A stretch of 64,000 bases of DNA, taken from NCBI GenBank assembly GCA_963790205.1, contig CAWBNQ010000003.1, forward strand, positions 608,785 through 672,784, in the 5' to 3' direction. The notes below the pieces were generated by a model. It was given only the letters and a program-made list of their open reading frames with translations. It did not search any database and was not told where the DNA came from. Within the stretch, counting starts at the first letter, position 1. Each line of letters starts with the position of its first letter. This document shows, piece by piece, positions 10,141-56,847 of this stretch. The DNA comes from Nitrospirota bacterium. Its GTDB lineage: Bacteria; Nitrospirota; UBA9217. The translations under genes were made by a program, and so were the position numbers.

Positions 10141-10476
10141 GTGTGAATTATACAGAGGGGAAACTTCAGAGTCAAGGTTCTTTTGAGCCCGGAAACGCCT
10201 GAACAAAAGGAAGCGCGGTCTCGACATCAGGCAGAGGGGGCCGATCGTCGCCGCCTGGCGAACATCCGGCAGGCGGACGCGGGACACCTCCTCGGCCGGA
10301 CCGGGAGGCCGTTTTTCAACACGCGGCAATTGGCGCCATGCTCAACCATGCCGTGCGGCCACGCGGTGCGGCGGTCGTTTCTTGACGGGGATTATGTACT
10401 TGCGGAGACCGGGGGAAGGGATAACGATAACACACGGGTGAGCCCCGCTATGCGGGACTCGTACCCGCAGGTTGAA

Positions 10477-11547
10477 CTACTGGTCACTTTTTTTATGATG
10501 TTTCATTGCAGTCTTGACGAACTGTCCGAATTTTCTGTCCTTTCTACGCTTTTCAACGTAGGACAGCTCGTTGTATTCAGATTCCTTCATCAGCTTCAAA
10601 AAGCTCTGATATCGATCCGCTTGTAATGTGCCATTGTCAATTGCGTTTAGGAGTGCGCAACCGACTTCCTTGGTATGAGTGCAATTGGCAAAACGACAGG
10701 TTTTTGAAAGGCTCCAAATATCAACGAAGCTTTCTTCAAGACCCGAACTGGCGCCGATATTCCCCAGTTCCCTCATTCCAGGGGTGTCGATCAGCATTGC
10801 CCCTTGATCGAGGACGATCAGTTGGCGCTGCGCCGTCGTGTGTTTGCCCTTCCCGTCGCTTGCACGGACTGTGTTTGTCTCAAATAAATCGCGGCCTATA
10901 ATATGGTTCAAGAGCGTTGTTTTGCCTACTCCGGAAGATCCAACGAGACAATACGTTTTGCCCGGCTCCAGTAATTGACGCACGTGATCCAATCCGAAGC
11001 CGGTCACGTTGCTGAGCGGAAGGACTTTGCATTGGATGTTAGCTTGACGTACTTCCGATATTCTTTGCTCCAGCTTCTCGGGGCTGACCAGATCGCTTTT
11101 TGTCAAGAGGAGGGTCGGTTCAACGTGCCCTTCGTTTACCATCACAAGGTAGCGCTCCAGCCTGCGCAGATTGAAATCGAAATCACAGGCTTGCACGATC
11201 AAGGCGGAATCTATGTTGACCGCGATCATCTGGTAGTCTATTTTTTTACCAGGGGCTTTTCTCCGTAAAAAAGATTTGCGGGGGAGAAGACCATGGATGA
11301 TGGCAAAGGTATCATCGTTGTGAAACTGGACAAGTGCCCAATCACCTACCGAAGGAAGATCTATGCTCGACTCAACTGAGTAAATAAAATTTCCTGCTAA
11401 TTCGGCAAACACTTCGCTCTTATTATTTCTTATAAGGTAGCTGTCCTTATGGACCGCAGTCACGCGAGCCACGGTGCAGTCTGGTCTCAGCGCCTCCGAT
11501 CTTTTGTCTTCAAACCACTGATCAAATCCGAGCGTTATAAGTTCCAT
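10477..11547 (-). CDS. rsgA: Ribosome small-subunit-dependent GTPase A.
   Basis: Circularly permuted GTPase motifs: DTPGMRE, P-loop GSSGVGKTTLLN and a C-terminal Zn-finger CRFANCTH. Confidence 0.9.
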   Translation of the reverse strand: MELITLGFDQWFEDKRSEALRPDCTVARVTAVHKDSYLIRNNKSEVFAELAGNFIYSVESSIDLPSVGDWALVQFHNDDTFAIIHGLLPRKSFLRRKAPGKKIDYQMIAVNIDSALIVQACDFDFNLRRLERYLVMVNEGHVEPTLLLTKSDLVSPEKLEQRISEVRQANIQCKVLPLSNVTGFGLDHVRQLLEPGKTYCLVGSSGVGKTTLLNHIIGRDLFETNTVRASDGKGKHTTAQRQLIVLDQGAMLIDTPGMRELGNIGASSGLEESFVDIWSLSKTCRFANCTHTKEVGCALLNAIDNGTLQADRYQSFLKLMKESEYNELSYVEKRRKDRKFGQFVKTAMKHHKKSDQ

Positions 11548-11551
11548 ATTA

Positions 11552-11604
11552 AGTTAACGAGTTCACGCGCCGCGAAGCAGTCGGCGTGGAACGACAGGTT
11601 ATGC
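11552..11604 (-). other. attC site (distal-most, abutting the chromosomal rsgA).
   Basis: AGTTAAC ... internal imperfect palindrome ... GTTATGC, ending at the stop of the last cassette ORF. Confidence 0.5.
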
Positions 11605-12236
11605 TATTTGCTCTTGGGCGCGAATATCTCGTTTACTTGAGCACGTAACTTCTCACCATGCTGTCCAGGGTTCCTAGTGTATGTATAAGATGTAATCAAT
11701 TGCTTGTTGTGCAGTACGTATATGACTGGTATAGAATTGTCGTAATAGCGAACGCCGAACTTTGTAAATAATTCGTCAGCTCGCTCTCGTGTCTGTTTTC
11801 CGCATTCAACAATCAGAATACTCATTTTTTTTGGATCAGGAGAACCAGAAGGTGTTAGGGCGTCCCTTTCTTCAAGTCTTCGTACATCCTTGAGATAGCC
11901 CTCAAGAACGCCGGCAGGCGTTAGATTATTGCGTTTCTTGGCAGGGAACCAAGTTGGACCACTATGCCGGCCGGAATTCTTAAGGTTATTTTCATCATAA
12001 GAATCTACAAGGCACAATATGACGATTTCTGCGGAATCAAGTTGGTTTAGTACGCTTTCCCACGATACTATGGAAACCGGCCAATAAGTGTTCCCCTCAT
12101 TCGAATCATGACTCGGTTTTGCACAAGCAGAAAGAAAAACGAATGCGATTACAGCAATGATTTTGACAAATTTCATTAATATCCTCCCCGTGCTCTTAAT
12201 GGGGAATTGCGACGACGGAGGTGATTTTATATGCAT
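11604..12236 (-). CDS. Cassette-encoded lipoprotein, hypothetical.
   Basis: Lipobox LSAC after a signal peptide (probable start MKFVK about 12176). Low GC. Confidence 0.45.
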   Translation of the reverse strand: MHIKSPPSSQFPIKSTGRILMKFVKIIAVIAFVFLSACAKPSHDSNEGNTYWPVSIVSWESVLNQLDSAEIVILCLVDSYDENNLKNSGRHSGPTWFPAKKRNNLTPAGVLEGYLKDVRRLEERDALTPSGSPDPKKMSILIVECGKQTRERADELFTKFGVRYYDNSIPVIYVLHNKQLITSYTYTRNPGQHGEKLRAQVNEIFAPKSK

Positions 12237-12817
12237 TTTGCCTTTTTCTTTACAGCAACAATATAGTCTTCATAGCTGTCGAACCCAGTAGGCAAATTAA
12301 TTTTCATATTCGGATTTTGTTTCCGAAATGTCTGGTAATCTGTCAAACTTTGATCATAATGCTTACATGCCTCGTTTTCATCTCCAATATACGATAAATA
12401 TGTGTTGCCCATAACGAGATCAATATTGGTTAATGCATCATACTTGGCATTTTTAACAAGGATCTCTTTTGCCATCTGAAAATATTCAATCGACTTTTTG
12501 TATCGTACGTCAAAGTTTATCGACTTGTCGAGGAAACCATTTTTTCGATAATGCGGTTCCCATCGGTCTACAGTCGGAGACTCCAAGAAGAAAGCATATT
12601 GCCGATACGTCTCAGCAAGCCCAAGTTCGTCATTCTTACTCTGATATATGTCTCTCGCCTCTAGAATCAAACGTTCCGCCGGTAAAGGACGATTTTGTTT
12701 TTCATATAAATTGTGAGCCCAACCAAGTTTTTCTCTAGGGTCACTTGTTACAGGTACCCCCATCGCTGCACATCCCGTAAGTGTTGCGACTATCAAAGCT
12801 ATGGCAAAGCGATGCAT
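12227..12817 (-). CDS. Cassette-encoded lipoprotein, hypothetical.
   Basis: Signal peptide plus lipobox LTGC. No known domain. Confidence 0.45.
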   Translation of the reverse strand: MHRFAIALIVATLTGCAAMGVPVTSDPREKLGWAHNLYEKQNRPLPAERLILEARDIYQSKNDELGLAETYRQYAFFLESPTVDRWEPHYRKNGFLDKSINFDVRYKKSIEYFQMAKEILVKNAKYDALTNIDLVMGNTYLSYIGDENEACKHYDQSLTDYQTFRKQNPNMKINLPTGFDSYEDYIVAVKKKAKCI

Positions 12818-12837
12818 AAATCGTCTTTCCTCCTTCT

Positions 12838-12894
12838 GGATAACACGCGGCTGACGCGCCGCACGGCGCGTCGCAGTCGAGCCGCAGGTTGGTA
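12838..12894 (-). other. attC site.
   Basis: GGATAAC ... GACGCGCCG/CGGCGCGTC stem ... GTTGGTA, 8 nt before the antitoxin stop. Shares the core GCGCGTCGC(T/A)GTCGAG with other attCs. Confidence 0.7.
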
Positions 12895-12901
12895 TCCCGA
12901 A

Positions 12902-13213
12902 TCAGCTGTGAGATGCTGCTGCATGCAGTTTCAAGCCGAGCGCATCCATGACCTTGAGGATGGTATCGAAACCGGGACTGCGTTCGCCGGAGAGCGCTTT
13001 ATAGAGACTTTCGCGTGATAAACCGGAGTCACGCGCGACCTGCGCCATCCCTTTTGCACGGGCAATATCGCCCAGTGCCTTGGCAATGAATGCAGCATCG
13101 CCGTTGGCCTCCTCAAAACATGCCTCAAGATATGCGGCCATTTCCTCCGGGGTGCGAAGATGTTCGGCAACATCGTACCGTGTTGTTTTGGTTTTGGCTT
13201 TTGTCTGGCTCAT
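12902..13213 (-). CDS. Addiction-module antidote protein (HigA-like HTH antitoxin).
   Basis: Resembles the 'probable addiction module antidote protein' family (TIGR02684-like). It lies downstream of, and 9 nt from, the toxin gene. Confidence 0.7.
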   Translation of the reverse strand: MSQTKAKTKTTRYDVAEHLRTPEEMAAYLEACFEEANGDAAFIAKALGDIARAKGMAQVARDSGLSRESLYKALSGERSPGFDTILKVMDALGLKLHAAASHS

Positions 13214-13222
13214 AATGCCCTC

Positions 13223-13513
13223 CTACAGATTGTGTGCGAGGCGTAACGCTGTCTTGATATCAGCGGCCTGAGTGCGTTTATCTCCACCGGCCAGCAAAAT
13301 TATCAATGTACGGCCTCGCATCGTGTAATACACCCGGTATCCGGGACCATAGTCGATTCGCAGTTCCGAGACACCCTCACCGACTGGCTTAACGTCACCA
13401 GGATTCCCCGTGGCTAAGCGTTCGACGCGAGCCTGCACGCGGGCGCGTGCATGAATGTCGCGCAGGCCATCAAGCCACTTAGCATATGTATCAGTTTTTC
13501 GGATTTCGAGCAT
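13223..13513 (-). CDS. Addiction-module killer protein (RelE/ParE-superfamily, HigB-like toxin).
   Basis: 96 aa. Resembles the 'putative addiction module killer protein' family (TIGR02683-like). Toxin-first (HigBA) order. Confidence 0.7.
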   Translation of the reverse strand: MLEIRKTDTYAKWLDGLRDIHARARVQARVERLATGNPGDVKPVGEGVSELRIDYGPGYRVYYTMRGRTLIILLAGGDKRTQAADIKTALRLAHNL

Positions 13514-13538: not shown

Positions 13539-13840
13539 ACATTGTCAATATTTTTCAATTAGGTTAATGTGCAACGTTATCAAAAGACAGGCAGGATAAT
13601 GAAGGCAGTGAATGACGTAAAGGACACAACGAATATCCAGAACCAGATTCCTATTTTCCCATCTTTACGTCGCGTGATCGCGATATAGTCAAAGATATTC
13701 TATAAAACTAGCAAAGTAATTGCTCTTCCCTGTCTCATTTCGAGCAATAGTCGAAATTCGCATGGCTGAGATTCCGGCAGCAATGGCGGAGAGCCATTTT
13801 ATGATTTGAATGAGAATCATGATGTTTTAGACTAATGCGG

Positions 13841-13936
13841 GGCTGAGCCATGACCCCTTGGGGTCATTGGTCTCCAGCTCCTGGTTCTCCCGGCGCGTTT
13901 TTCGCGCTGGGAAGGAGCGCATGGCTCAGCCCCGCA
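13841..13936. repeat. Long structured palindrome: 19-bp perfect inverted repeat AATGCGGGGCTGAGCCATG around a nested imperfect palindrome.
   Basis: Read directly. No ORF. It lies between the TA cassette and the next attC. Confidence 0.5.
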
Positions 13937-13957
13937 TTCTCGCGGCGCGAAGCGCCG

Positions 13958-14016
13958 GGAGAACGCGGCGCTGACGCGCCGACCTTGGCGCGTCGCTGTC
14001 GAGCGCCAGGTTAATC
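13958..14016 (-). other. attC site.
   Basis: GGAGAAC ... GACGCGCCG ... GGCGCGTCGCTGTCGAGCGCCAG ... GTTAATC. The TAA stop of the upstream cassette ORF lies inside the core. Confidence 0.7.
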
Positions 14017-14490
14017 ATTGTTCTTTTGTTCTGTGTTTAGTTCATCAAGTTCTTTTCGGCTGAGCGTAAACGACATAAATAAAAACAGAAAGCTGATAAT
14101 GAAATAAGCGGTATATTCTGCAAGCACGGAAAAGGAGTGCATCCATTTCCAAAATCCCATACCAATGGGGATTGAAATAGGTCCGAGCCATTTCGGGATA
14201 GGAATACTTTTCAGCTTTGATCTGAATTTCCAAATTACGAGCCATATTGGACAGACAGCTAACAAGTCGAAGAAAATGATTTTATTAAGGGTTATCAAGT
14301 CTAGCTCTTTTTCTGTCTTTGCCATGAATAAAAGGGCAATGAAAACGAGAGCAGATGCATATTGTGAACGTGACTTAAAAGGTCTTTTACTGAATTTGCG
14401 AAGGGCCAATACGAGTGTAACGGCAAATGCTATACACGCAATGGAAACGAGAAGAATATAAAGGTAGAATTTGTCCGTACTCATTTCCAT
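14011..14490 (-). CDS. Cassette-encoded small membrane protein, hypothetical.
   Basis: Four or five hydrophobic helices. AT-rich. Confidence 0.35.
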   Translation of the reverse strand: MEMSTDKFYLYILLVSIACIAFAVTLVLALRKFSKRPFKSRSQYASALVFIALLFMAKTEKELDLITLNKIIFFDLLAVCPIWLVIWKFRSKLKSIPIPKWLGPISIPIGMGFWKWMHSFSVLAEYTAYFIISFLFLFMSFTLSRKELDELNTEQKNND

Positions 14491-14521
14491 TTGTCACCAA
14501 ACCATGATCAAATTATTTCCC

Positions 14522-14581
14522 GATTAACACGCGCCTGACGCGCCGCCTTCGGGCGCGTCGCTGTCGAGGCGCTTGTTAGGC
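14522..14581 (-). other. attC site (best-formed).
   Basis: GATTAAC-ACGCGCC ... GGCGCTT-GTTAGGC are near-perfect reverse complements, with central GACGCGCCGCCTTCGGGCGCGTC. It lies 33 nt before the SIR2 gene stop. Confidence 0.8.
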
Positions 14582-14614
14582 TACCTTTCCTCTTGTCATG
14601 TTCGAACTAGATGT

Positions 14615-15748
14615 CTAGTGGGCTTTTTTGATAGCTACGTATTCTTCGAGCGTTTTGTAGTATTTCAGATCATGGCCACGGAATATGCTAGCATAACGTT
14701 TCTTCAGTTGGGAGCCCCGCTTGCAAGCAGCTGGATTCACCACGTCGATTTCAATCTTTGTAAATTTTGGCTGTGGTCGCATTTCTTCAACAAGATAATT
14801 AATTTGCCGAAAGAGCCATTCAGCGTAGCAGTCAGTGGAGGGAAAAGAATAACCTATAAAGACAAGTCTCCTGCTTTGCTGAAGTTTTCGCCTAGCGATT
14901 TTCCACTGGCGGTTGTAAAGACTGTTCTGATGAATTTCAATTTTTTCTGACACAGGAGGGATGATGTTTATCTCCATTACGGAATTGCAAGACTTACACT
15001 TAGGATAATCAGCAAGTGTTATTTCCGCGATGTTTCCTTTTTTACTTCTTATAAATGTGTTTGTCTTCTTTGATTTGCATTTATCGTTTCTGCATGTTGC
15101 CCAGTTTAATGACCCATGAAGCTTCAAATAAACAGGGGCAGAATAGTAGGTTGTTATCCGGTTGTGACCTGTTATTAGTGCGACATAATTCTTAAAATGT
15201 GCTTTGTCATGTTTTTCAAGTGTAACATCTGCTATTGTGTCCCAATTGAACGAAACCACAGTGTCGAGATCAGACAAATCTCCGAACAGCCTTTCTAAAT
15301 ATCCACAGTATTGTCCGTAAGACCGCATGGTAAGCATCAATGTGATGAATCGCACAAGACTTCTTTTCGCTTCAAGGAAGACTTTTTGGTACGCACTGCC
15401 TTTAGGGTACATCTTTGTCCCAATGTCGAAATGAGTAAAAACACTTTCAATGTTCAAACCTTTCCAAGTGCTACCATCATAAAAAGAGCGCGTGTCGTCT
15501 AGTTTGTATGTTTGGTGCAAAAGAAGATTGAGCCCTTCATGTGTAGCTCCAAGCAAATTTAAGAAATTGGTACCCGTTGCGCCGTATTCTTTGTCGGAAA
15601 CCAATATGTCATAAAAGAAATTATCACCAGAAGGCATTCGCCGATCTCGAAGCCAGTCGTCCGATTCCGGCAGCCGTTTAGCTCCAATTGATGCACCGGC
15701 ACCGAGTATATACATCGTTCCGCGATCGTCATTATCTATAGCCATCAA
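14615..15748 (-). CDS. SIR2-like (SIR2_2/DHS-like NAD-binding) domain protein with a C-terminal Cys4 zinc ribbon.
   Basis: N-terminal MYILGAGASIGA, characteristic of the SIR2_2 family. C-terminal CRNDKC...CKSC. Cassette location. Confidence 0.6.
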   Translation of the reverse strand: MMAIDNDDRGTMYILGAGASIGAKRLPESDDWLRDRRMPSGDNFFYDILVSDKEYGATGTNFLNLLGATHEGLNLLLHQTYKLDDTRSFYDGSTWKGLNIESVFTHFDIGTKMYPKGSAYQKVFLEAKRSLVRFITLMLTMRSYGQYCGYLERLFGDLSDLDTVVSFNWDTIADVTLEKHDKAHFKNYVALITGHNRITTYYSAPVYLKLHGSLNWATCRNDKCKSKKTNTFIRSKKGNIAEITLADYPKCKSCNSVMEINIIPPVSEKIEIHQNSLYNRQWKIARRKLQQSRRLVFIGYSFPSTDCYAEWLFRQINYLVEEMRPQPKFTKIEIDVVNPAACKRGSQLKKRYASIFRGHDLKYYKTLEEYVAIKKAH

Positions 15749-15788
15749 TTCTCACGTATTTCCTTTCGCGACCCTCTCGACGCGACTG

Positions 15789-16529
15789 TTAGTCGGCAGA
15801 GTCGATCTTTATAGCTTCTTCAACTCGTCGGCACAACAAACTGGAAAGAACGAGGTATTGGGCTGCAACGTTCTGAGTTGGATTAATAGTAAGAGTATGT
15901 GCTTTCGGATTTCTTACTCCCTGATATACGCCTTGAAGAATCTGGATAAACCCCTTCTGATCGTTACAACCGGACTCTGTTTCCAAAGATGAAAGGACAA
16001 GAACTGGTCTTTGCAAGGAAAATGTTGCGGCAACAAGTTCGGGACCATCCTTGTCAATTCCTGTGCGTTCTCGAATAAAATCAAAAACTGTAACAATGGA
16101 ATTTAAAACAGCATCCCTAAAACGACCAGCTCTGAAGTGGGCATATGAAGCCGCAGTTACTCTCGGATGTAGAAGGTCTAGGATTGAATAGCTAAGGTCA
16201 GAGTAGGGTTGTGATGAAAAATAGTCATCTATTGCATCCTCTAGTTGTGTTATTAGCTCTAGGATGCTCCAATGCGAACCCCTTTCGTCAGCAGCGATAT
16301 GATGTAAAATATCCTTAATTTTAGAACTATCAAGTCCTTTTGGCCAAATACGCTCAAGATCTCCAAGTGACCGCACCAATAGGCTTGTAAGTGAGCCGGT
16401 CGCATAGCCTTCGCCCTCATTGAACTTCGCATCCATAATTTCTCGTGTGGTTGCTTGGATGGCCCGAAGTGATCTGTTTATTGCTATGTATTTTTCTATC
16501 ATATATTTCCCTTGGCGACAGGCTGTCAC
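15789..16529 (-). CDS. Hypothetical protein, possibly Hypoth_Ymh/Abi-like (C-terminal RNPKAH motif).
   Basis: 246 aa. The C-terminal GVRNPKAHTL resembles the conserved motif of the TIGR02391 family. Weak. Confidence 0.3.
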   Translation of the reverse strand: MTACRQGKYMIEKYIAINRSLRAIQATTREIMDAKFNEGEGYATGSLTSLLVRSLGDLERIWPKGLDSSKIKDILHHIAADERGSHWSILELITQLEDAIDDYFSSQPYSDLSYSILDLLHPRVTAASYAHFRAGRFRDAVLNSIVTVFDFIRERTGIDKDGPELVAATFSLQRPVLVLSSLETESGCNDQKGFIQILQGVYQGVRNPKAHTLTINPTQNVAAQYLVLSSLLCRRVEEAIKIDSAD

Positions 16530-16576
16530 ATAAAATGTACTTAATGTATATATGCCTCTACATATGATGTGATTTA

Positions 16577-17416
16577 TTAGCGCGCATCTTGGCTTGGTTC
16601 CGGGTTATCGATTTGTTCAACTGTGACGGTTGCAGCTATAGCGTTCCATGCATCAAGCATCCAATGTGGTAATTGGTCATGTCGTTTTACCGATACTCGC
16701 GCATTTGCGTATGGCATGTGAGGTAAGAGGACGGTTCTAACAATGAGAGTGTCTGGATTGACTTGAATTGGGGCGATGAGATCAGGTGACTGGGTGATGT
16801 TTTCTCGACTCTGCATATAGAGTGGCACAAGGTAGTTCATTCGCCCGTAATACCAGTACGGAAGTTGCAAGCCTCGATTAATTGACCACTGAATAGCCCC
16901 AGATACAGCGCACATCTGCGAAACCGGGGGCGTTTGTCCTAAAAAAGGTACGCGATCTGAATTGTCTCTGAGTATGTGGTCATGAAGCATGACGATCTCA
17001 GCTCCGCATGGCAACGCTGGCGCTGCTGGTAAATCAGGCGGCGTTGGTAGTGCACCGGCAGAGATATCGGAGCCGACGTGAACGCAGTAAAGAGGCCCAC
17101 GCCCTGCATTGGTGTTCCTCTCAAATACCATGTAAATTGGCGTCCCGTATCGCGTCTGTAAGTGTCCGGCGGTGACGAATAATTGGTTACTACTGGTGGT
17201 GTATCGATCTTGCTCGATGCTCCAAGCGATATGGACAGCAAGATATTTCTCAAGAACGTAGTTGTCGTTTCCCCAATTTTCAGAGAGGGCTGTACTGCTA
17301 AGCGATGAAAAGATGCGTTGCGGGATTTGGGCAAGGCGTCGCAATCGAACTACCACTTCGTTTGTGAATGGATCTCCTAATGCGGCCGATAGTTCTTCTT
17401 TCGTGAATGACATCAA
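16577..17416 (-). CDS. Hypothetical cassette protein.
   Basis: 279-aa ORF with a TTG/ATG start. No recognised domain. Confidence 0.35.
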   Translation of the reverse strand: MMSFTKEELSAALGDPFTNEVVVRLRRLAQIPQRIFSSLSSTALSENWGNDNYVLEKYLAVHIAWSIEQDRYTTSSNQLFVTAGHLQTRYGTPIYMVFERNTNAGRGPLYCVHVGSDISAGALPTPPDLPAAPALPCGAEIVMLHDHILRDNSDRVPFLGQTPPVSQMCAVSGAIQWSINRGLQLPYWYYGRMNYLVPLYMQSRENITQSPDLIAPIQVNPDTLIVRTVLLPHMPYANARVSVKRHDQLPHWMLDAWNAIAATVTVEQIDNPEPSQDAR

Positions 17417-17466
17417 GCCTCCTTGGAACTAACATGTTATTGACTATAAGGACCAGGTTTATGATA

Positions 17467-17829
17467 TCAATAACCTTCTGACTCCCCGTTTATGATAAGC
17501 CGTTCCAATTCAGTTCCCTTGATTTTGCCGTATTGAATATGCCAGGCGCGTGTTTTTGGATCCCATTTCCCTTGCGCCGCTTTGGCCTTCTCCCGCAAAA
17601 CTGTATCATTATATGCAATGCGCACAGGCACTCGAGTGTTGTCCTCGAATCGGCGTACAGCAGGCGCCCAGGTTTTCTTCTCAATGATCAGTTCTGCGGT
17701 CTTCAGCCGGGTGCGGCTCACCTTGTCGTAACGGTAGCGTACGCAGAGGAGCGCCGCGCCGTATTTGGCAACCAGGCTTTTTGTCCCTTTTTGCCCCGGT
17801 TTCAGCTTGATGGTCGTAATGATTGGCAT
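17467..17829 (-). CDS. Hypothetical protein, first cassette next to attI.
   Basis: 120-aa basic protein. No recognised domain. Confidence 0.35.
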   Translation of the reverse strand: MPIITTIKLKPGQKGTKSLVAKYGAALLCVRYRYDKVSRTRLKTAELIIEKKTWAPAVRRFEDNTRVPVRIAYNDTVLREKAKAAQGKWDPKTRAWHIQYGKIKGTELERLIINGESEGY

Positions 17830-17839
17830 CGCATCCCCC

Positions 17840-17930
17840 TCAAGGGTATAACATGGAAAAGCCTACTATAAATATCCACTAATTGCAAGAATTTCAATGG
17901 GGTATCGCGGGGTATTGAGGCCGGGGTATT
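17840..17930. promoter_or_regulatory. Putative attI region: GGGTATAAC core-like site plus three GGGGTAT(T/C)G direct repeats abutting the intI start. Pc is expected here.
   Basis: Direct repeats at about 17899, 17909 and 17923. It lies between the first cassette ORF start and intI. Confidence 0.35.
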
Positions 17931-19378
17931 GCTAATTCGATATATTCCCGGTATGCCATCCTGTATGGAACCCATCCCCCCGGATACCCTTGCTCGCTTT
18001 AACAACTTCATGAAACGGCATAATGTCGCCCCTCTTTGCCGGTCCGATTACCGGAAGTGGCTCCGCTATTTTCTCGACTTTCGCGCCAAATATTCTCTGC
18101 CCGACCCTCATACCGATCAAGTGAAGCTGTTTGCGGAAAAGTTGCGGTCGAAGAATCAAACCACGGCGCAGGTAAAACAGGCGACTGATGCGATCTCGCT
18201 TTATTTCTCTCTCCAGCCTGAAATTGAAATTGTCTCTACGACGGGGCTCATGCGGCGTCAGGACCGGACGGAGGAACAACGTCTGTCGGAACGGCGCTCT
18301 TCCCCGGAGCAGTCTCCTGAGTTGGTCCGTGAGCCTCCCGGACTTTTGCAGGCCCAGCCTCCCGTCAGATCAGGCAGGCGGTATGACGAATGGCGTTGCC
18401 TCAGAAAAACCGCGTCACCTGCGTGGGACGGGGTGATCGGAAAGCTGGCCGAGGAAATAAAGGTCCGGCACTATTCCCGCAAAACACTCAAACACTATGC
18501 TGATTGGATCAGAAAATTTCAGAATTACCTGAAAGACAAAACACCCGGGGATCTGTCCTCGCAGGATGTCAAAGAGTATCTCACTCATCTGGCCGTCTAA
18601 GGAAGACGTCTCTTCAAGCCACCAGAATCTCGCATTCAATTCTCTGCTGTTTCTGTACAGGCACATCCTGAAGAAGGACTTTGGAGATCATAAAGATGTC
18701 CCGCGCGCGAAGACCTCGAACTATATCCCTGCGGTTCTTTCCCGCAAGGAGATCGATTCGGTTCTGGTTCATCTCAGACATCCCTTCAGGCTTGTGGCCC
18801 AGCTCCAGTATGGCTGCGGGCTGCGCATTTCCGAGGGCTGCCAGCTGCGCGTCAAGGATTTTGACTTCGATACGGGTCTCCTTAGGGTGCGGGGAAAGGG
18901 CGACAAAGTACGGACCGTGCCGCTGCCGAAAACGCTCCTCACGGAACTTCATGCCCAGTTGGAGCACGTGAAAAAACTGCATGAGGAGGATCTCACAGCG
19001 GGTTTCTCCGGGGTCTTTCTCGACGATCAACTTGAAAAGAAGTATCCGCGGGCCGCGAAGGAGTTTGTCTGGCAATGGTTTTTCCCGCAGGAGTCGCTGA
19101 CTTTCATCGCTCAAACGAAAGAATCGCGGTGCTATCATGTGCATGATTCGCGGATGCAGGAAGCTTTCGGCGAAGCGGTGCGCAAGGCGAAACTCACAAA
19201 GCGCGTCACCTCCCACACCTTCCGCCATTCCTATGCAACCGCAATGCTGCAGGCCGGTTACGATCTCCGCACGATTCAGACGCTCCTTGGCCACGCGGAC
19301 GTCAGGACCACGATGATCTATCTGCACTGCCTCCCGCCAAAACCCGGGAAAGAGGTAAAAAGCCCGTTGGATTTCTGA
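17929..19378 (+). pseudogene. intI: Integron integrase IntI, split into two ORFs by a +1 frameshift at about 18590. It carries an about 150-aa N-terminal extension.
   Basis: The IntI-specific patch is present: LEKKYPRAAKEFVWQWFFPQ ... HDSRMQEAFGEAVRKA. Catalytic RxxR, HxxR and Y are present: HTFRHSYATAMLQAGYDLRTIQTLLGHADVRTTMIYLHCL. ORFs 17929..18600 and 18566..19378 are in different frames. Confidence 0.85.
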
Positions 19379-19444
19379 GGCCAGGATCGACTGTTAAGTT
19401 TTTCTTTGCCTTCTTGCCCTTCTCGCGGTAAAATCCTTCTGCAT

Positions 19445-20188
19445 ATGGACATCATCATCGCTCACAATTTGAAAAAGGACTACAACGGCCTTCGGGCCGT
19501 GGACAACATCGATTTTGCGATCAGGCAGGGCGAGTGCTTCGGTTTCCTCGGCCCCAACGGCGCGGGAAAGACCACGGTCATGCGCATCATCTCCTGCTTC
19601 ATGCCGCCCACGGCAGGGACGGTGACGGTCTTCGGGATGGATGTCGTGGACCGGCCGAGCGCGATCAAGTCCCGCATCGGCGTCATGCCGCAGGACATCA
19701 ATCTCGACCCCGATCTTTCCGTGACCGAGAACCTCAGGGTCTATGCCCGGTACTTCGACATCCGGAAAAAGGACGCGCTCAGGCTCAGCCGGGCGCTCCT
19801 CGAGTTCGTCGAACTCACCGACAAGGGGGCCGCCGAGATCGACCAGCTTTCGGGCGGGATGAAGCACCGCCTCCTGCTCGCGCGCGCGCTCGTGAACAAC
19901 CCGGAGATCCTGGTCCTCGACGAGCCCACGACCGGGCTGGACCCGCACAGCAGGCGGGCGGTCTGGGAAAAGCTCAACCACTTGAAATCAAAAAATACCA
20001 CGCTTCTCCTCACGACGCACTACATGGAAGAGGCGGAGAAGCTGTGCGACCGGGTGGCGATCATGGATTCGGGCAGGATCGTGACCGTTGATTCTCCCCG
20101 GCATCTTACGGAGGAACACGGCGGGAACCTTGAGGACGTCTACCTTCAAGCTCACGGGGAGGAGCCTTGCAGATTAAGCGCGCGATGA
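19445..20188 (+). CDS. ABC transporter ATP-binding protein.
   Basis: Walker A GPNGAGKTT, signature LSGGMKHRL and Walker B ILVLDEPT. Confidence 0.9.
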   Translation: MDIIIAHNLKKDYNGLRAVDNIDFAIRQGECFGFLGPNGAGKTTVMRIISCFMPPTAGTVTVFGMDVVDRPSAIKSRIGVMPQDINLDPDLSVTENLRVYARYFDIRKKDALRLSRALLEFVELTDKGAAEIDQLSGGMKHRLLLARALVNNPEILVLDEPTTGLDPHSRRAVWEKLNHLKSKNTTLLLTTHYMEEAEKLCDRVAIMDSGRIVTVDSPRHLTEEHGGNLEDVYLQAHGEEPCRLSAR

Positions 20189-52496: not shown

Positions 52497-52558
52497 AATG
52501 GGGCGGATGCGCGGATGAGCCGCGTGTTTTTCGCGGCGGTCTCGATCCGCTCGTTATG

Positions 52559-52559
<1 letters not shown>
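52497..52559 (-). other. attC site (terminal, next to gpsA).
   Basis: GCGGATGAGCCGCG ... CGGCGGTCTCGATCCGCTC-GTTATGC, ending at the stop of the RibD_C-like ORF. Confidence 0.5.
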
Positions 52560-53107
<548 letters not shown>

Positions 53108-53136
53108 TACGTAAGAGTACCTCTAATCATAGGTCA

Positions 53137-53195
53137 GCCTAACACGGTGTTGAGGGGCGGTGATTTTCCCGCCCCTCTCGGACACCAAGTTATAT
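53137..53195 (-). other. attC site.
   Basis: GCCTAAC-ACGGTGTTGAGGGGCGG ... CCGCCCCTCTCGGACACC-AA-GTTATAT. The TAA stop of the upstream ORF is embedded. Imperfect stem with extrahelical bases. Confidence 0.75.
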
Positions 53196-53768
53196 CACAC
53201 TCACGAGTAAACGTAATATCCAATAAAGTGTGAATGACGCACCAATGAAAATTAATGTCCAAATTAAAGCGATAAGCCATTTTGATAATTGTACCGTTGG
53301 AATGACGGTGATAATTTTAGCCAAACCATCATCAGACTTTGCATAAGCATTGATTTTATCCCAAGTTGTAGGAGGAAAATATAAATATGAAATGGTAATT
53401 TGTTCTTTCGGAACTAAAACAGGTATAAGTAATTCTCCAGAACCATCATCGTTACGCTCAACGGAATATTTGATCTTTGGGAAAACGGTGATATTAGGTG
53501 GTAAATAATTATGTCCAACTCTGACGTTGTGGGCTGATTTATTCCCGGCATTGCGAAGGATAATGCTATGAGTAAAGACGACGGTCTTTTGAGCATCTTG
53601 AAGAGTAAAAGAAGATATATGGCCTATATAGGAAACGAGTTTTGATCGTGTTTCTGTGTAGTATTTAATAATTGTTCCGAGGAGGAGCGTAATGATTGGA
53701 GAGAGTAATTTAAGAATTTGTTCGGTTGTCATAGAACCTCCCTTATCGTGTCCGCAATGTGGGTCCAT
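53190..53768 (-). CDS. Hypothetical membrane protein (cassette).
   Basis: N- and C-terminal TM helices. AT-rich. Confidence 0.35.
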   Translation of the reverse strand: MDPHCGHDKGGSMTTEQILKLLSPIITLLLGTIIKYYTETRSKLVSYIGHISSFTLQDAQKTVVFTHSIILRNAGNKSAHNVRVGHNYLPPNITVFPKIKYSVERNDDGSGELLIPVLVPKEQITISYLYFPPTTWDKINAYAKSDDGLAKIITVIPTVQLSKWLIALIWTLIFIGASFTLYWILRLLVSVI

Positions 53769-53860
53769 TGTTATGCAAAAAGAAGTAATTTCAAATGACC
53801 CTAATGTAAAAACAACAGATTGCGAATGCCAAAAATGCGGCTGGTCACAATATCACTCAC

Positions 53861-53913
53861 ATATAACGCGCCGGTCACGCGCCGCTTTTTAGCGCGTCGC
53901 TGTGGACCGGCAG
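53861..53913 (-). other. 5' portion of an attC site interrupted by the group II intron.
   Basis: ATATAAC-GCGCCGG ... GCGCGTCGCTGTGGACCGGCAGG matches the attC family consensus up to the core. The intron sequence begins in place of the TT(RRRY) core. Confidence 0.6.
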
Positions 53914-55866
53914 GTGTACGCTCGGCACGGGCGTGAGCTAATGGGGTGCAAGTCCTCTGTACGAGAACCAGAGTAGCACAAGTACCAGCCCAAGGCAAGG
54001 GCGGAAGGGCGACCGACCGTCTGAAGGAAGCCTAACGGCAAACGTGCGAGCCGACGGACAGAAACCGCATACAAGGCTTAGCCCTCGGGTGAGTCAGCAC
54101 CACATGACGAAGCCCACTGGTTCAGGGGATAGGGTAAATGCGGCGGTTGCGCACGGACAGTTCACGTTCTTATCCGGGGAGATCTGCGCGACATGCGATA
54201 GGATCGTCATGAGAGAATCCGGGACGGGTCAACCCGGCAAGCAAGGCCCCGGCGTATCAGCGGCTGTCGCCTGATACGAGTCCCGCTTTCGGGAGATACG
54301 AATCAGACAGCATCTCATGCCGAACCCCTGTAGCGCCTTCTTTGGAAACAGAGACGGTGAGCGCGCAGAAGTCAGCAGACGGCATAGTAGTCCCGGACTA
54401 CTCGGGACGAAGGCCAGAACGCGGAAAGGAGGAAGGGCAATCCATAAGCTCTGGGACGGTGATGAGTCCGACACGGATGAGCCGATCCGGGCGCGTTATG
54501 GAGAGACAGCCCACTCGAATGACCACAGTGGAAGACGTTGTAGGCAGTGAGAACATGCAGCAGGCATGGCAGCGGGTCAAGGCGAACAAGGGAGCAGCCG
54601 GCATCGACGACATGTCGATTACGGACTATCCCGAATTCGCCAGGACCAACTGGCCAAGAATCAAAGCCTCCTTGCTGGACGGGACGTATGATCCCACTCC
54701 GGTCAAGAGGGTCGAGATTCCGAAGGACAACGGGGGTACGAGGCTTCTCGGCATCCCCACGGTCTCCGATCGCGTTATTCAGCAAGCGATCACCCAGGTG
54801 CTTGTCCCGATCTTCGATCCCCACTTCTCCGAATCGAGCTATGGGTACAGGCCGGGCCGCTCGGCGCATCAGGCTGTAAAGAAGGTGGTTGAGTTGATCA
54901 ACCAAGGATACCGCTACGCCGTTGACATCGATCTTGCGAAGTTCTTCGATAACGTCAATTGGGACGTGTTGATGAGCCGGGTCGGTAGACGCGTCACGGA
55001 CAAGGGCATCCTCAAACTGATCGGCAAATACCTTCGGGCCGGAGTCGTCGTAAACGGCAGGCTTACCCAGACCACCAAAGGAGTGCCGCAGGGCGGGCCG
55101 CTTTCGCCGTTCCTGTCGAACATTCTTCTGGATGATCTCGACAAAGAGTTGGAGAAACGGGGGCATCAGTTCTGCCGGTACGCCGACGACCTTATCATTC
55201 TGGTAAAGTCAAAGCGTGCCGGAGAGCGGGTGATGAAGAGCGTCACCACCTTCCTTGAAAAGAACCTCAAGGTGCAGGTGAACAGGGACAAGAGCAAGGT
55301 GGGAAGCGCGGAGTCCAGCATCTTCCTCAGCTTCACGTTCCATCTCAAGAGGCCCACTGTCTCCCGGAAGGCGTTCACGAACTTCAAGAATGAACTCAAG
55401 GACCTTACGGGCCGCAGCTGGGGTGTATCCATGAAGCACCGATACGATAAAATCCGGACCTACTTACAGGGCTGGATGAACTATTTCGGAATCGGTATGC
55501 GGTACAACGATGCGGTCGAACTGGATCAGCGGCTCCGAAGACGCATTCGGATGTGCTATTGGAAACAGTGGCGCACGACGAGAAAGCGCGTCGGGGAGCT
55601 GATGAAACGCGGGGTGAGTGAACATCGCGCAGTATCGGTCGGCATGAGCAGGAAGAGCTACTGGCATCTTGCTAAGAACGAAGCCATCAATGTCGGCCTG
55701 TCCAATGCCTATCTCAAGGAACAGGGGCTTACCTCGATCAGAACACTGTGGATCAAGATTCACCATCCGGCTACGGCCCGATAGTTTTCTGCGAATCGCC
55801 TAGTGCGGACCCGCATGCTAGGTGGTGTGGGGGCTGGGGGCTAAACACCCCCGGCTACCCGATTAA
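53914..55866 (+). mobile_element. Group II intron (attC-associated, class C-like), antisense to the cassette genes.
   Basis: A structured 5' region of about 430 nt with no ORF. The RT/maturase ORF lies in the domain IV position. DV/DVI-like hairpins at about 55805-55860, ending about 8 nt before the next cassette ORF stop. Confidence 0.7.
54342..55784 (+). CDS. Group II intron reverse transcriptase/maturase (RT domains 0-7 plus X; no En domain).
   Basis: The YADD motif (FCRYADDLIILV), RT blocks (PQGGPLSPFLSNILLDDLD) and a maturase/X region. The probable real start is an internal Met near 54500. Confidence 0.9.
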   Translation: METETVSAQKSADGIVVPDYSGRRPERGKEEGQSISSGTVMSPTRMSRSGRVMERQPTRMTTVEDVVGSENMQQAWQRVKANKGAAGIDDMSITDYPEFARTNWPRIKASLLDGTYDPTPVKRVEIPKDNGGTRLLGIPTVSDRVIQQAITQVLVPIFDPHFSESSYGYRPGRSAHQAVKKVVELINQGYRYAVDIDLAKFFDNVNWDVLMSRVGRRVTDKGILKLIGKYLRAGVVVNGRLTQTTKGVPQGGPLSPFLSNILLDDLDKELEKRGHQFCRYADDLIILVKSKRAGERVMKSVTTFLEKNLKVQVNRDKSKVGSAESSIFLSFTFHLKRPTVSRKAFTNFKNELKDLTGRSWGVSMKHRYDKIRTYLQGWMNYFGIGMRYNDAVELDQRLRRRIRMCYWKQWRTTRKRVGELMKRGVSEHRAVSVGMSRKSYWHLAKNEAINVGLSNAYLKEQGLTSIRTLWIKIHHPATAR

Positions 55867-55873
55867 AATATGC

Positions 55874-56767
55874 TCATTTAGATTTCCAACTTATGCGGCG
55901 CAATAGGACGCCATCGTCAAGAGCGATAAGGTGATAAATATCTCCCTCTGAATCCACTGCAAATCTTTCATCGAAATTGCCCCGATATCTAATTTGAATT
56001 GGCTTTTCAATTTTCTTGGATTGCACATCACCATTAATTTGGTATTGTATCTTTATGTTTTTGTCCTTATTTTCGATTTGTACAGTTGTCGTTATTGCAT
56101 AATTATTCTTTCGAGAGTTATTAGATTTGATGCGATAAAAAGTCCCTTCTTTGTCATACCAAGAGAAATGATCATGATTTGGATTCTTTACATATTTAAG
56201 GAAATTTCCATCAAAATCATAAACTGCTGACTTTCCCGATCCTCCAATAACACAAGTAACATGGCCCATCTGTTCATCGCTGCTTATCTCAGAAAAATAC
56301 TCTTCTGTCTTCGGGTTAAGCTGCTGAGCGCCAAATTTATTTAATATCTTGCCACCGGAGGATATTTTGTAAATATCGTCATTCAGCATATTATAATAAG
56401 GTGGCTTTGCTATGAGGGCGAAGAAGTTGTCATTCAAAATAGCGAATCGACCAGCAAGTCCTTGTTTGATCCAATCGAAACCGAGAGGGATCTTTCTAAT
56501 GAACTTACCGTTTAAGTCGAAGACTTGAATTCGGTTATTCATAGAATCGAAAATATAAATATGACTTTTGTAAAGTTGAAAGTCTAGCGAATAGCCCAGT
56601 TCCGTTTTGCCAAGAGTTTCTCTACCAAATTCGCCGTCTTTGTCGCCCCAATTACCAACGATTAATATGTTGTCACTGATATTAGGGCCGCAAAATGCGG
56701 GCGAGGTATATAAACTGCAAAAAAGAACGATGATCATGACGTATTTCAGAACTTTCATGAATACCAC
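55874..56767 (-). CDS. Secreted protein with NHL-repeat-like beta-propeller motifs (cassette).
   Basis: Signal peptide. IYIFDSMNNRIQVFDLNGKF-type repeats. Confidence 0.4.
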   Translation of the reverse strand: MVFMKVLKYVMIIVLFCSLYTSPAFCGPNISDNILIVGNWGDKDGEFGRETLGKTELGYSLDFQLYKSHIYIFDSMNNRIQVFDLNGKFIRKIPLGFDWIKQGLAGRFAILNDNFFALIAKPPYYNMLNDDIYKISSGGKILNKFGAQQLNPKTEEYFSEISSDEQMGHVTCVIGGSGKSAVYDFDGNFLKYVKNPNHDHFSWYDKEGTFYRIKSNNSRKNNYAITTTVQIENKDKNIKIQYQINGDVQSKKIEKPIQIRYRGNFDERFAVDSEGDIYHLIALDDGVLLRRISWKSK

Positions 56768-56787
56768 CTTTGATGAGCTTTTATTCG

Positions 56788-56847
56788 GATTAACGCGCGG
56801 GTGAGACGCGCGTATTTTGCGCGTCGTTCTCGACCCGCAGGTTGGGT
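56788..56847 (-). other. attC site.
   Basis: GATTAAC-GCGCGGG ... GACGCGCGT...GCGCGTCG ... CCCGCAG-GTTGGGT. It abuts the TGA stop of ORF 56847..57677. Confidence 0.75.

What the first reader, a model, noticed from the sequence alone, without database searches (positions are those of the whole stretch)
17929..19378. IntI with a roughly 150-aa N-terminal extension resembling a second SAM-like domain, interrupted by a +1 frameshift.
Canonical IntI homology (VIGKLAEEIKVRHYS...) only begins about 160 codons into the upstream ORF. The preceding region (DTLARFNNFMKRHNV...YFLDFRAKYSLPD...AISLYFSL) looks like an extra N-terminal core-binding domain. That is unusual, since IntI proteins are typically about 320-340 aa. 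The two halves are in different frames, and the junction (CTGGCCGTC-T-AAGGAAGAC) is not a homopolymer. The gene may therefore be genuinely inactivated, which is common in sedentary integrons, or this may be a sequencing indel. The attI-like GGGGTAT direct repeats sit immediately 5' of the extended ORF, which argues that the extension is coding.
Basis: partly seen in the sequence, partly recalled or inferred. Interest (0 to 1): 0.6.

Follow-up and report, generated by a model that had tools for sequence, protein, structure and literature searches.

The report
Frameshifted long-form integron integrase gene
This is the integrase gene of a chromosomal integron from a widespread but uncharacterised "long" lineage that carries a second copy of its DNA-binding head domain, and in this genome a recent one-base insertion has broken it.

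Summary

The extension is a lineage trait: more than 115 intact 440-545-aa homologues share it, mostly from Nitrospirota. It is under purifying selection (dN/dS 0.13-0.19). Nemergut et al. 2008 mentioned long IntI proteins in passing as a "gene fusion".

The frameshift appears real and recent. A separate assembly of run ERR12035932 reproduces it exactly, while a 99.64 % identical contig from another sample carries the intact gene.

The GGGGTAT repeats are real but are not attI. Comparison of strains and relatives places the attI core (AGTCAATAAC-AT-GTTAGTT, 17445-17427, minus strand) on the far side of a conserved 120-aa gene lying between intI and attI. Four attC sites follow, and a second attC cluster lies 33 kb away.

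Verdict: a broken member of a barely described IntI variant, with an unusual platform layout.

The parts
17965..18600 (+). 5' part of intI up to the premature TAA (211 codons). It encodes the CB' domain, the linker, the conserved motif and the first three helices of the canonical CB domain.
   Evidence: Logan L071 calls the same 211-aa product
17965..18219 (+). Extra N-terminal core-binding (SAM-like) domain CB', aa 1-85. Four helices: 6-18, 23-42, 49-62 and 67-83. Invariant residues Y29, W32, D38 and K59.
18220..18378 (+). Variable linker predicted to be disordered, aa ~86-138.
   Evidence: pLDDT below 50 for residues 86-140; low column conservation; dN/dS 0.38-0.58
18379..18435 (+). Conserved motif RRYDEWRCLRKTxSPAWD (invariant W143, C145, W154) directly before the canonical IntI start.
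18598..18598 (+). Inserted T that shifts the frame (GTC-T-AAG). Removing it restores ...LTHLAVKEDVSSSHQNLAF...
18599..19378 (+). 3' part of intI in frame 2: the last CB helix, the catalytic domain with the R-K-HxxR-H-Y residues, and the IntI-specific insertion.
17899..17929 (+). Three GGGGTAT direct repeats in the 135-nt spacer between intI and the 120-aa gene. Conserved in L068 and L070 only. Probably regulatory, and not attI.
17467..17829 (-). Conserved 120-aa gene (p120, weak DUF5710 match) lying between intI and attI and read in the direction of the cassettes.
17455..17476 (.). One ~20-bp palindromic unit (AGGTTTATGATATCAATAACCT). The intact-allele strain L070 has four units and relatives have three to five.
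17427..17445 (-). Inferred attI core AGTCAATAAC-AT-GTTAGTT, with the crossover at G|TT (17433|17432).
14528..17432 (-). First cassette, 2.9 kb, three ORFs: DUF3825 (16577..17416), HEPN/Hypoth_Ymh (15789..16529) and SIR2-like (14615..15748).
14520..14583 (-). attC site 1
   Evidence: 77.3 bits
13956..14018 (-). attC site 2
   Evidence: 78.3 bits
12836..12896 (-). attC site 3
   Evidence: 77.5 bits
10423..10479 (-). attC site 4, the last of the array next to intI
   Evidence: 52.7 bits

Best explanation
The region is the platform of a sedentary chromosomal integron, most likely in a Nitrospirota genome.

Its integrase belongs to a long-form IntI lineage with this domain order:
- CB', a second four-helix core-binding/SAM-like domain (aa 1-85)
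- a ~55-aa flexible linker
- a short conserved motif
- the canonical CB domain
- the catalytic domain with the IntI-specific insertion

In this genome a single inserted T (18598) inside the canonical CB domain ends translation after 211 codons. No catalytic domain is made from this allele, so the integrase is inactive. The lesion is recent. A near-identical strain still has the intact gene and a different first cassette, so cassette exchange at attI has happened in this population very recently.

Shown: gene identity, domain architecture and fold, conservation and purifying selection on the extension, the single-base lesion and its reproduction in a second assembly, the attC array, and the position of the attI core.

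Inferred: CB' is a DNA-binding module. It keeps the conserved basic and polar residues R30, K31, K59, K63, Q65, Q69 and Q72 on its helices, but their correspondence to the DNA-contacting helices of CB domains was not checked. Tethered by the linker, it could let an integrase bound at the attI core also hold accessory sites nearby. That would resemble the IntI1 DR1/DR2 sites or lambda Int arm sites.
For: - Integrase identity: TIGR02249 scores 362.8 bits against a cut-off of 265, covering residues 162-473. The match to Vibrio IntI4 (2a3v) has E = 6.7e-64 and runs without large gaps through the IntI-specific region, with the catalytic R, K, HxxR, H and Y aligned.
- Distribution: 117 full-length homologues of 440-545 aa cover 99-100 % of the query. 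63 genome loci were found, mostly Nitrospirota. 1,277 cluster representatives match CB' at E <= 1e-10.
- Selection: dN/dS is 0.13-0.19 for CB' and 0.05-0.13 for the core.
- Frameshift: it is the only frame-breaking indel. Logan contig L071 (ERR12035932) is 100 % identical over window 17434-19048. L070 (SRR18214510) is 99.64 % identical, lacks T18598 and encodes an intact 470-aa IntI.
- No other decay: the window deviates at 5 of 202 highly conserved columns against a median of 4, and its distance to outgroups equals that of intact relatives.
- Integron context: attC sites on the minus strand, the same attC family upstream of intI in 8 relatives, and the attI core.
Against: - No reads were inspected. 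If the window's assembly and the Logan contig come from the same run, they would share any systematic sequencing error, and the platform of ERR12035932 is unknown to me.
- The coding sequence shows no decay other than the frameshift, which would also fit an error.
- The DNA-binding role of CB' is pure inference. Sequence similarity of CB' to CB domains is weak (hhalign probability 16.8 %, E = 0.0015; PDB profile hit to IntI4 at E = 0.59).
- No accessory repeat common to all long-IntI loci was established.
Confidence: 0.8

Rival explanations
1. The frameshift is a sequencing or assembly artefact, and the genome really carries an intact 470-aa long-form intI.
For: The 99.64 % identical contig L070 has the intact gene. 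The repaired protein shows no excess of substitutions at conserved positions and no rate acceleration. Some frameshifted relatives come from MAGs that may contain indel errors.
Against: A separate de Bruijn assembly (Logan, ERR12035932) is 100 % identical to the window over 1,615 nt and includes the extra T. The site, GTC-T-AAG, is not a homopolymer. About 10 of 63 related loci are also frameshifted, at different positions. Roughly one third of intI genes are reported to be pseudogenes (PMC2426708).
Confidence: 0.15
2. The +1 shift is programmed recoding, so full-length IntI is made by ribosomal frameshifting as a form of regulation.
For: Both halves are otherwise intact, and the stop codon sits exactly at the shift site, as in prfB-type +1 sites.
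Against: All 117 full-length homologues and the 99.64 % identical strain encode the protein in a single frame. GUC-UAA offers no re-pairing codon for a +1 slip. Other frameshifted relatives break at different positions.
Confidence: 0.02
3. The N-terminal extension is a degenerate relic of a fusion with a neighbouring recombinase fragment, has no function, and marks these long IntI genes as pseudogene-like. Nemergut et al. initially classed them this way because of their length.
For: CB' is more divergent than the core, with dN/dS about twice as high. The linker is unconstrained. The similarity of CB' to CB is weak.
Against: Invariant and near-invariant residues persist across 117 sequences from several phyla. 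dN/dS of 0.13-0.19 indicates purifying selection. The predicted fold is confident. Long IntI genes sit beside genuine attC arrays, and cassette content differs between near-identical strains.
Confidence: 0.1
4. The GGGGTAT triple repeat is the attI accessory region (DR-like integrase-binding sites).
For: The repeat cluster is non-random (0 of 300 shuffles). It is conserved in L068, whose intI is intact. It lies in the spacer next to intI, where class 1 attI1 lies in textbook integrons.
Against: The repeats are absent from 40 other long-intI loci. The conserved core TAGTCAATAAC-NN-GTTRRRY, after which sequences diverge between strains and relatives, lies downstream of p120, about 520 bp from intI. 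In p120-less relatives the same core lies 134-214 nt from intI. In other close relatives the space occupied by the GGGGTAT repeats holds the divergent promoters and a GAAC-N4-GTTC operator.
Confidence: 0.07

Closest known systems
Integron integrases (IntI; NCBIfam TIGR02249), with Vibrio cholerae IntIA/IntI4 (PDB 2A3V) and IntI1 as characterised examples
   Same: Residues 162-470 align end to end with IntI4 (E = 6.7e-64), including the catalytic residues and the IntI-specific insertion. The gene is divergent from an array of attC sites and has an attI core of the AAC-NN-GTTRRRY type.
   Different: There are about 160 extra N-terminal residues forming a second CB-type domain, a flexible linker and a conserved motif. 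A conserved 120-aa gene and an array of palindromic units lie between intI and the attI core. The copy in this window is frameshifted.
The 'clade 15' deltaproteobacterial IntI proteins of Nemergut et al. 2008 (PMC2426708), described as sharing one gene fusion and being ~120 aa longer than other IntI
   Same: Both are long-form IntI conserved across a lineage and judged probably functional. Full-length homologues of the window protein are labelled Deltaproteobacteria and Geobacteraceae.
   Different: That paper did not say what the extra part is. I did not check directly that their Geobacter proteins carry this same CB' domain. A 453-aa Geobacteraceae MAG protein (L072) does carry it.
Lambda-type heterobivalent integrases (arm-binding domain + CB + catalytic domain)
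   Same: Both have a three-module layout in which an extra N-terminal domain is tethered by a linker to a CB-plus-catalytic core. This suggests simultaneous binding of core and accessory sites.
Class 1 attI1 with its DR1/DR2 accessory IntI1-binding sites (from my own knowledge of Collis, Gravel and co-workers)
   Same: Repeated elements lie 5' of a simple core site where cassettes insert.
   Different: The repeats here are ~20-bp palindromic units in 1-5 copies that vary between strains. They follow an intervening gene, and the protein that binds them is unknown.

Membership tests
Integron integrase (IntI) | Scores above the curated threshold of the IntI-specific profile | tested here: met
   TIGR02249 scores 362.8 bits against a cut-off of 265, covering profile positions 2-313 of 315, for the repaired protein. 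The class-1-like equivalog NF011946 scores 261 against a cut-off of 435, which is not met, so this is not IntI1.
Integron integrase (IntI) | Tyrosine-recombinase catalytic residues R, K, HxxR, H/W and Y | tested here: met
   The alignment to 2a3v shows GLRISE/GLRLME, GKGDKVR/GKGGKNR, HTFRHS/HTLRHS, LGHADV/LGHTDV and IYLH/IYTH. R287, K311, H417, R420 and R447 are invariant, and H443 and Y452 nearly invariant, in the 118-sequence alignment.
Integron integrase (IntI) | IntI-specific additional domain (I2 helix region) between patches II and III | tested here: met
   Query residues 350-395 (KKYPRAAKEFVWQWFFPQ...SRCYHVHD) align with IntI4 residues 200-245, including W219, H240 and H241. The window has C389 where all 117 homologues have R.
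Integron integrase (IntI) | Uninterrupted reading frame giving a catalytically competent protein | tested here: not met
   The extra T at 18598 creates a TAA stop after codon 211. The locus is therefore an intI pseudogene, or an inactive allele of a gene that is intact in a sister strain.
Complete integron (intI + attI + attC array) | An array of attC sites on the strand opposite to intI, adjacent to it | tested here: met
   A covariance model built from 5 sites found minus-strand sites at 14520-14583, 13956-14018, 12836-12896 and 10423-10479. It also found 3 sites that were not in the training set, and 12 in related loci.
Complete integron (intI + attI + attC array) | An attI recombination site where cassettes are inserted | tested here: inconclusive
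   The conserved core AGTCAATAAC-AT-GTTAGTT (17445-17427) is followed by unrelated sequence in the 99.64 % identical strain and in 7 relatives. This is strong comparative evidence, but no recombination assay was done.
Lambda-type arm-binding integrases | N-terminal arm-binding domain with its own fold, together with arm-type sites flanking the core | tested here: not met
Programmed +1 frameshift genes (prfB-like) | A shift site conserved among orthologues with a slippery P-site codon | tested here: not met
   Orthologues and the sister strain are in a single frame.

The most novel reading that the evidence does not exclude
Long-form IntI proteins may be heterobivalent integron integrases. The duplicated CB' domain, on its ~55-aa tether, would act as an arm-type module that binds accessory repeats of a compound attI. 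In this sub-lineage those would be the strain-variable array of ~20-bp palindromic units between the conserved p120 gene and the attI core, with p120 possibly acting as a platform-encoded accessory or regulatory factor. That would make this a mechanistically distinct class of integron platform, convergent with lambda-type integrases.
Probability: 0.2. Interest if true: 0.65.

Novelty: new variant of a known kind. Interest (0 to 1): 0.45.

Why it matters
Work on how integrons recombine rests on short IntI proteins such as IntI1 and VchIntIA. A large environmental lineage (Nitrospirota, Desulfobacterota/Geobacteraceae, Nitrospinota and others) instead uses an integrase with two core-binding domains. 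In one sub-lineage the platform also has an extra conserved gene and a repeat array between intI and attI.

If CB' binds DNA, attI recognition and the control of cassette insertion in these integrons would differ from the textbook model. Length-based filters may also be discarding these genes: Nemergut et al. classed proteins at least 20 % longer than IntI1 as pseudogenes.

The copy in this window is a broken allele and is ordinary in itself. The pair of near-identical strains is useful, though. One has the intact gene and one the frameshifted gene, and they differ in their first cassette and in repeat copy number. Together they pin down the attI crossover and show recent activity.

Tried and rejected
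1. I first read the window's lack of the TTGACA-GAAC-N4-GTTC-TATACT promoter and operator, and of a GGAGG ribosome-binding site, as evidence that the platform had decayed. I rejected this when the nearest relative L068, whose intI is intact, turned out to share the same spacer with the GGGGTAT repeats.
2. GGGGTAT as attI: rejected, as set out under the rival explanations.
3. I looked for attC sites between the four minus-strand ORFs at 14615-17829. None was found with the model at E <= 10, and the gaps of 40-50 nt are too short. After attI was mapped, three of these ORFs form one 2.9-kb cassette and the fourth (p120) lies outside the cassettes.
4. p120 as a universal partner of long IntI: rejected. 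An HMM finds it in only 19 of 77 loci, namely the closest sub-clade plus Geobacteraceae-like loci.
5. Exact 7-mer triple repeats upstream of intI as a general theme: found only in the window and in L019.
6. Sequence-only searches of CB' and of p120 against the PDB gave nothing significant. PHROGs and NCBIfam gave nothing significant for p120.
7. Six literature searches found no paper describing the extension as a second CB domain. Only Nemergut 2008 mentions the longer proteins.
8. The search of cluster representatives with CB' returned mostly 90-300-aa hits. I read these as gene fragments on short contigs and not as stand-alone CB' proteins. This was not verified.

Full report
**1.

The window has a + strand ORF at 17929..18600 (223 aa from a TTG) and an overlapping + strand ORF at 18566..19378 (270 aa), one frame further on. 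The junction reads CTGGCCGTC-T-AAGGAAGAC. Removing the T at 18598 joins ...YLTHLAV to KEDVSSSHQNLAFNSLLFLYRHIL... and gives one continuous protein.

A DNA alignment with three intact orthologues (L001, L002, L003) shows exactly one extra base in the window at this position. There is no other frame-breaking indel.

Nucleotide homology to the orthologues begins precisely at the ATG at 17965. That is also where the intact allele of a near-identical strain is called. The real protein is therefore 470 aa.

**2. It is an integron integrase**

- The repaired protein scores 362.8 bits on NCBIfam TIGR02249 (cut-off 265). The match covers only residues 162-473 of the 474-aa version.
- It aligns with Vibrio IntI4 (PDB 2a3v) at E = 6.7e-64, from query residue 162 to 467. 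The catalytic R, K, HxxR, H and Y residues and the IntI-specific insertion are in place.
- No other intI copy exists in the 64 kb.

**3. The extension is a second core-binding (SAM-like) domain**

- Pfam PF13495 (Phage_int_SAM_4) matches twice in the repaired protein. The extension alone matches at E = 6.6e-6 and 26.9 bits, against a gathering score of 27.
- A profile of the extension aligns collinearly over 76 columns with a profile of the protein's own CB domain (hhalign E = 0.0015, 14 % identity).
- AlphaFold2 on a 118-sequence alignment gives four confident helices for residues 6-83 (pLDDT above 90) and a disordered stretch at 86-140 (pLDDT below 50). The canonical four CB helices (152-234) and the catalytic domain follow.
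- The isolated domain model has pLDDT 89.5 and pTM 0.80.
- Between the linker and the canonical CB domain lies a further conserved motif, RRYDEWRCLRKTxSPAWD, with W143, C145 and W154 invariant.

**4. The extension is a lineage trait, not a peculiarity of this gene**

- The homology search returned 120 best hits. Of these, 117 are 440-545 aa long and cover 99-100 % of the query at 56-78 % identity. Many are named "integron integrase" by their source.
- Y29, W32, D38 and K59 in the extension are invariant across those 117.
- A scan of one genome per species found 63 loci. Most are Nitrospirota or Thermodesulfovibrionia. Others are labelled Nitrospinota, Deltaproteobacteria/Desulfobacteraceae, Elusimicrobiota, Verrucomicrobiota, Lentisphaeria and Methylobacter. 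I did not check that each of these carries the extension, and the Methylobacter match covers only residues 127-470.
- A profile of the domain alone hits 1,277 cluster representatives at E <= 1e-10. Most listed hits are short, which I read as fragments from short contigs.
- dN/dS between the window and four intact orthologues is 0.13-0.19 for CB', 0.38-0.58 for the linker, 0.05-0.09 for CB and 0.10-0.13 for the catalytic domain. The extension is translated and constrained.
- In the literature I could search, only Nemergut et al. 2008 (PMC2426708) mentions such proteins. They describe a deltaproteobacterial clade whose IntI share "a single gene fusion event", are "~120 amino acids longer" and "may ... 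actually [be] functional". I found no paper identifying the extra part as a CB domain.

**5. The frameshift is probably real and recent**

The 120-aa neighbouring protein is 100 % identical to a database entry (P0270) carried on a 1.09-Mb contig and on two Logan assemblies.

- Logan contig L071 (run ERR12035932) is 100 % identical to window 17434-19048. It contains the extra T and yields the same 211-aa truncated product.
- Logan contig L070 (run SRR18214510) is 99.64 % identical to window 17456-19945. It lacks T18598 and encodes an intact 470-aa IntI.

So both alleles occur in nature in nearly identical backgrounds.

The repaired window protein is not degraded otherwise. It deviates at 5 of 202 highly conserved columns, against a median of 4 for intact homologues. 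It is as close to outgroups as its intact relatives are.

One deviation is worth noting. C389 replaces an arginine that is invariant in the other 117 sequences, next to the equivalents of IntI4 H240 and H241. From memory, these residues belong to the pocket that holds the extrahelical bases.

About 10 of the 63 related loci are also frameshifted, at different positions. This fits the report that about a third of intI genes are pseudogenes.

Programmed frameshifting is effectively excluded, because the sister strain and all orthologues are in a single frame.

I could not inspect reads. The remaining doubt is a sequencing error shared by the window's assembly and the Logan contig, if both derive from the same run.

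**6. Where attI is**

The three GGGGTAT repeats (17899-17929) are non-random and conserved in the nearest relative L068. They are absent from 40 other long-intI loci.

In the other close relatives, the spacer next to intI holds two divergent sigma-70-like promoters. PintI there carries a GAAC-N4-GTTC palindrome between its -35 and -10 elements. From general knowledge this resembles a Cheo-type LexA box.

I first took the absence of that promoter from the window as a sign of decay. I dropped that idea because L068, whose intI is intact, shares the window's spacer.

The decisive comparison is between the window and L070. Reading away from intI, the two are identical through the 120-aa gene. L070 then has four copies of a ~20-bp palindromic unit (GTT(T/A)ATxxTATCATAAAC) where the window has one. 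Both then share TGGTCCTTATAGTCAATAACATGTTAG and diverge completely after that.

The same core, TAGTCAATAAC-NN-GTTRRRY, followed by unrelated sequence, occurs after 3-5 palindromic units downstream of the p120 homologue in L001, L002, L014, L027 and L040; L003 has the shorter variant GAATAAC-TT-GTTAGTC. The L005 contig ends exactly at the GTT.

In a dozen more distant long-IntI loci that lack p120, the related core CTAATAAC-TG/TT-GTT lies 134-214 nt from the intI start.

I therefore place the attI crossover at G|TT, positions 17433|17432 on the minus strand. The 120-aa gene lies inside the platform, between intI and attI.

**7. The rest of the integron**

- A covariance model built from five attC-like sites finds minus-strand attC sites at 14520-14583, 13956-14018, 12836-12896 and 10423-10479.
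- It also finds a second cluster at 52500-52561, 53135-53197, 53859-53923 and 56786-56849.
- The same model finds attC sites upstream of long intI in eight relatives.
- The first cassette (17432-14528, 2.9 kb) carries three ORFs: DUF3825, a HEPN/Hypoth_Ymh protein and a weak SIR2-like protein.
- A later cassette carries a HigB/HigA-like pair.

**8. How it probably works**

Shown: a long IntI with tandem CB domains sits beside a real attI and attC array. In this strain it cannot be made in full length. In a sister strain it can, and that strain has a different first cassette.

Inferred: CB' binds DNA. Its conserved residues are basic or polar, but I did not check that they lie on the helices that contact DNA in CB domains. 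Held on a flexible tether, it could bind accessory sites near the attI core.

The junctions between adjacent palindromic units (CATAAAC-NN-GTTTATG) mimic the core (CAATAAC-NN-GTTAGxx). They are therefore plausible extra integrase-binding sites. They could equally be p120 operators.

p120 is a conserved protein of unknown function with a weak DUF5710 match; 31 of 33 family members match it. It is not universal among long-IntI loci.

**9. Verdict**

The gene is a recently inactivated allele of a long-form intI. The long form is a real, widespread and essentially uncharacterised variant of IntI. The attI assignment was wrong. Interest is moderate: the broken gene is ordinary, while the tandem-CB architecture and the intI-p120-repeats-attI platform deserve experimental attention.

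Noticed in passing
window 17467-17829 (-); homologues in L001-L005, L007, L014, L027, L040 and L068-L077: A conserved 120-aa protein (weak DUF5710 match, no PDB or NCBIfam match) lies between intI and the attI core in the closest long-intI sub-clade. It is also divergent from a long intI in a Geobacteraceae MAG (L072) and in L074/L075. L076/L077 have the gene, the repeats and the attI core but no intI within 4 kb. It may be a platform-encoded accessory or regulatory factor.
   Followed up: partly
window 17455-17476; L070 2470-2556; L001, L002, L005, L014, L027, L040, L003, L072, L074 and L076 downstream of p120: There is an array of ~20-bp palindromic units between p120 and the attI core. The copy number differs between near-identical strains (1 in the window, 4 in L070). 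The unit sequence differs between lineages: GTTTATGATATCATAAAC, GTTTGTAATACTACAAAC or GCATCTAATATTAGATGC.
   Followed up: partly
window 14528-17432 (-): The first cassette is unusually large at 2.9 kb. It carries three ORFs: DUF3825, a HEPN/Hypoth_Ymh protein (PADLOC Aga_HEPN and PD-Lambda-3_B, E = 3e-20) and a weak SIR2-like protein. It looks like an anti-phage defence cassette. The sister strain L070 has a different first cassette.
   Followed up: partly
window 52500-56849 (-): A second cluster of four attC sites of the same family (52500-52561, 53135-53197, 53859-53923, 56786-56849) lies 33 kb from intI with no integrase nearby. It is an attC array lacking an integrase (CALIN-like).
   Followed up: no
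window 17965-19378 compared with L068 and L001: intI is mosaic. Against L068, synonymous divergence is 0.13 in CB' and about 0.9 in CB and the catalytic domain. Against L001 the pattern is reversed: 1.9 in CB' and 0.54 in the catalytic domain. This implies homologous recombination within intI between lineages.
   Followed up: no
window 18105, 18185, 18550, 18605: All four coding SNPs that separate the window's intI from the intact allele in L070 are non-synonymous (D47E, T74I, D196Y, D214N). Two of them flank the inserted T within 56 nt.
   Followed up: no
window 19129-19131 (codon 389): Cys replaces an Arg that is invariant in the other 117 long-IntI homologues. It lies next to the residues equivalent to IntI4 H240 and H241 in the IntI-specific insertion. 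The intact allele in L070 shares it.
   Followed up: no
L001, L002, L005, L013, L014, L027 and L040, mostly ~50 nt (42-83) upstream of intI: Close relatives have a PintI promoter, TTGACA-N17-TATACT, with a GAAC-N4-GTTC palindrome (LexA-box-like) in its spacer, and a divergent Pc-like promoter, TTGACA-N17-TATAGT. The window has no GAAC-N4-GTTC anywhere in its 64 kb.
   Followed up: partly
L016, L023, L028, L029, L039, L045, L030 and others, within ~60 nt of the intI start: Distant long-intI loci carry an inverted pair, GACTAATAT-N10-12-ATATTAGTC, next to intI. The motif resembles the CTAATATTAG core of the palindromic units in L003 and L072. It may be a shared operator or accessory site.
   Followed up: no
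window 12902-13513 (-): One cassette encodes a HigB/Gp49-like toxin (13223..13513) and an HTH antitoxin (12902..13213). Toxin-antitoxin pairs are typical of sedentary integrons.
   Followed up: no
window 13828-13973: Nested inverted repeats lie in the non-coding part of a cassette. One is a perfect 19-nt pair (13834-13852 with 13920-13938) and another a 22-nt pair (13875-13896 with 13952-13973). They are unexplained.
   Followed up: no
window 10477-11547 (-): An RsgA-type GTPase ORF is followed directly by the last attC-like site (10423-10479). It may sit inside a 2.4-kb cassette together with the ORFs at 11604..12236 and 12227..12817, or it may mark the edge of the array.
   Followed up: no
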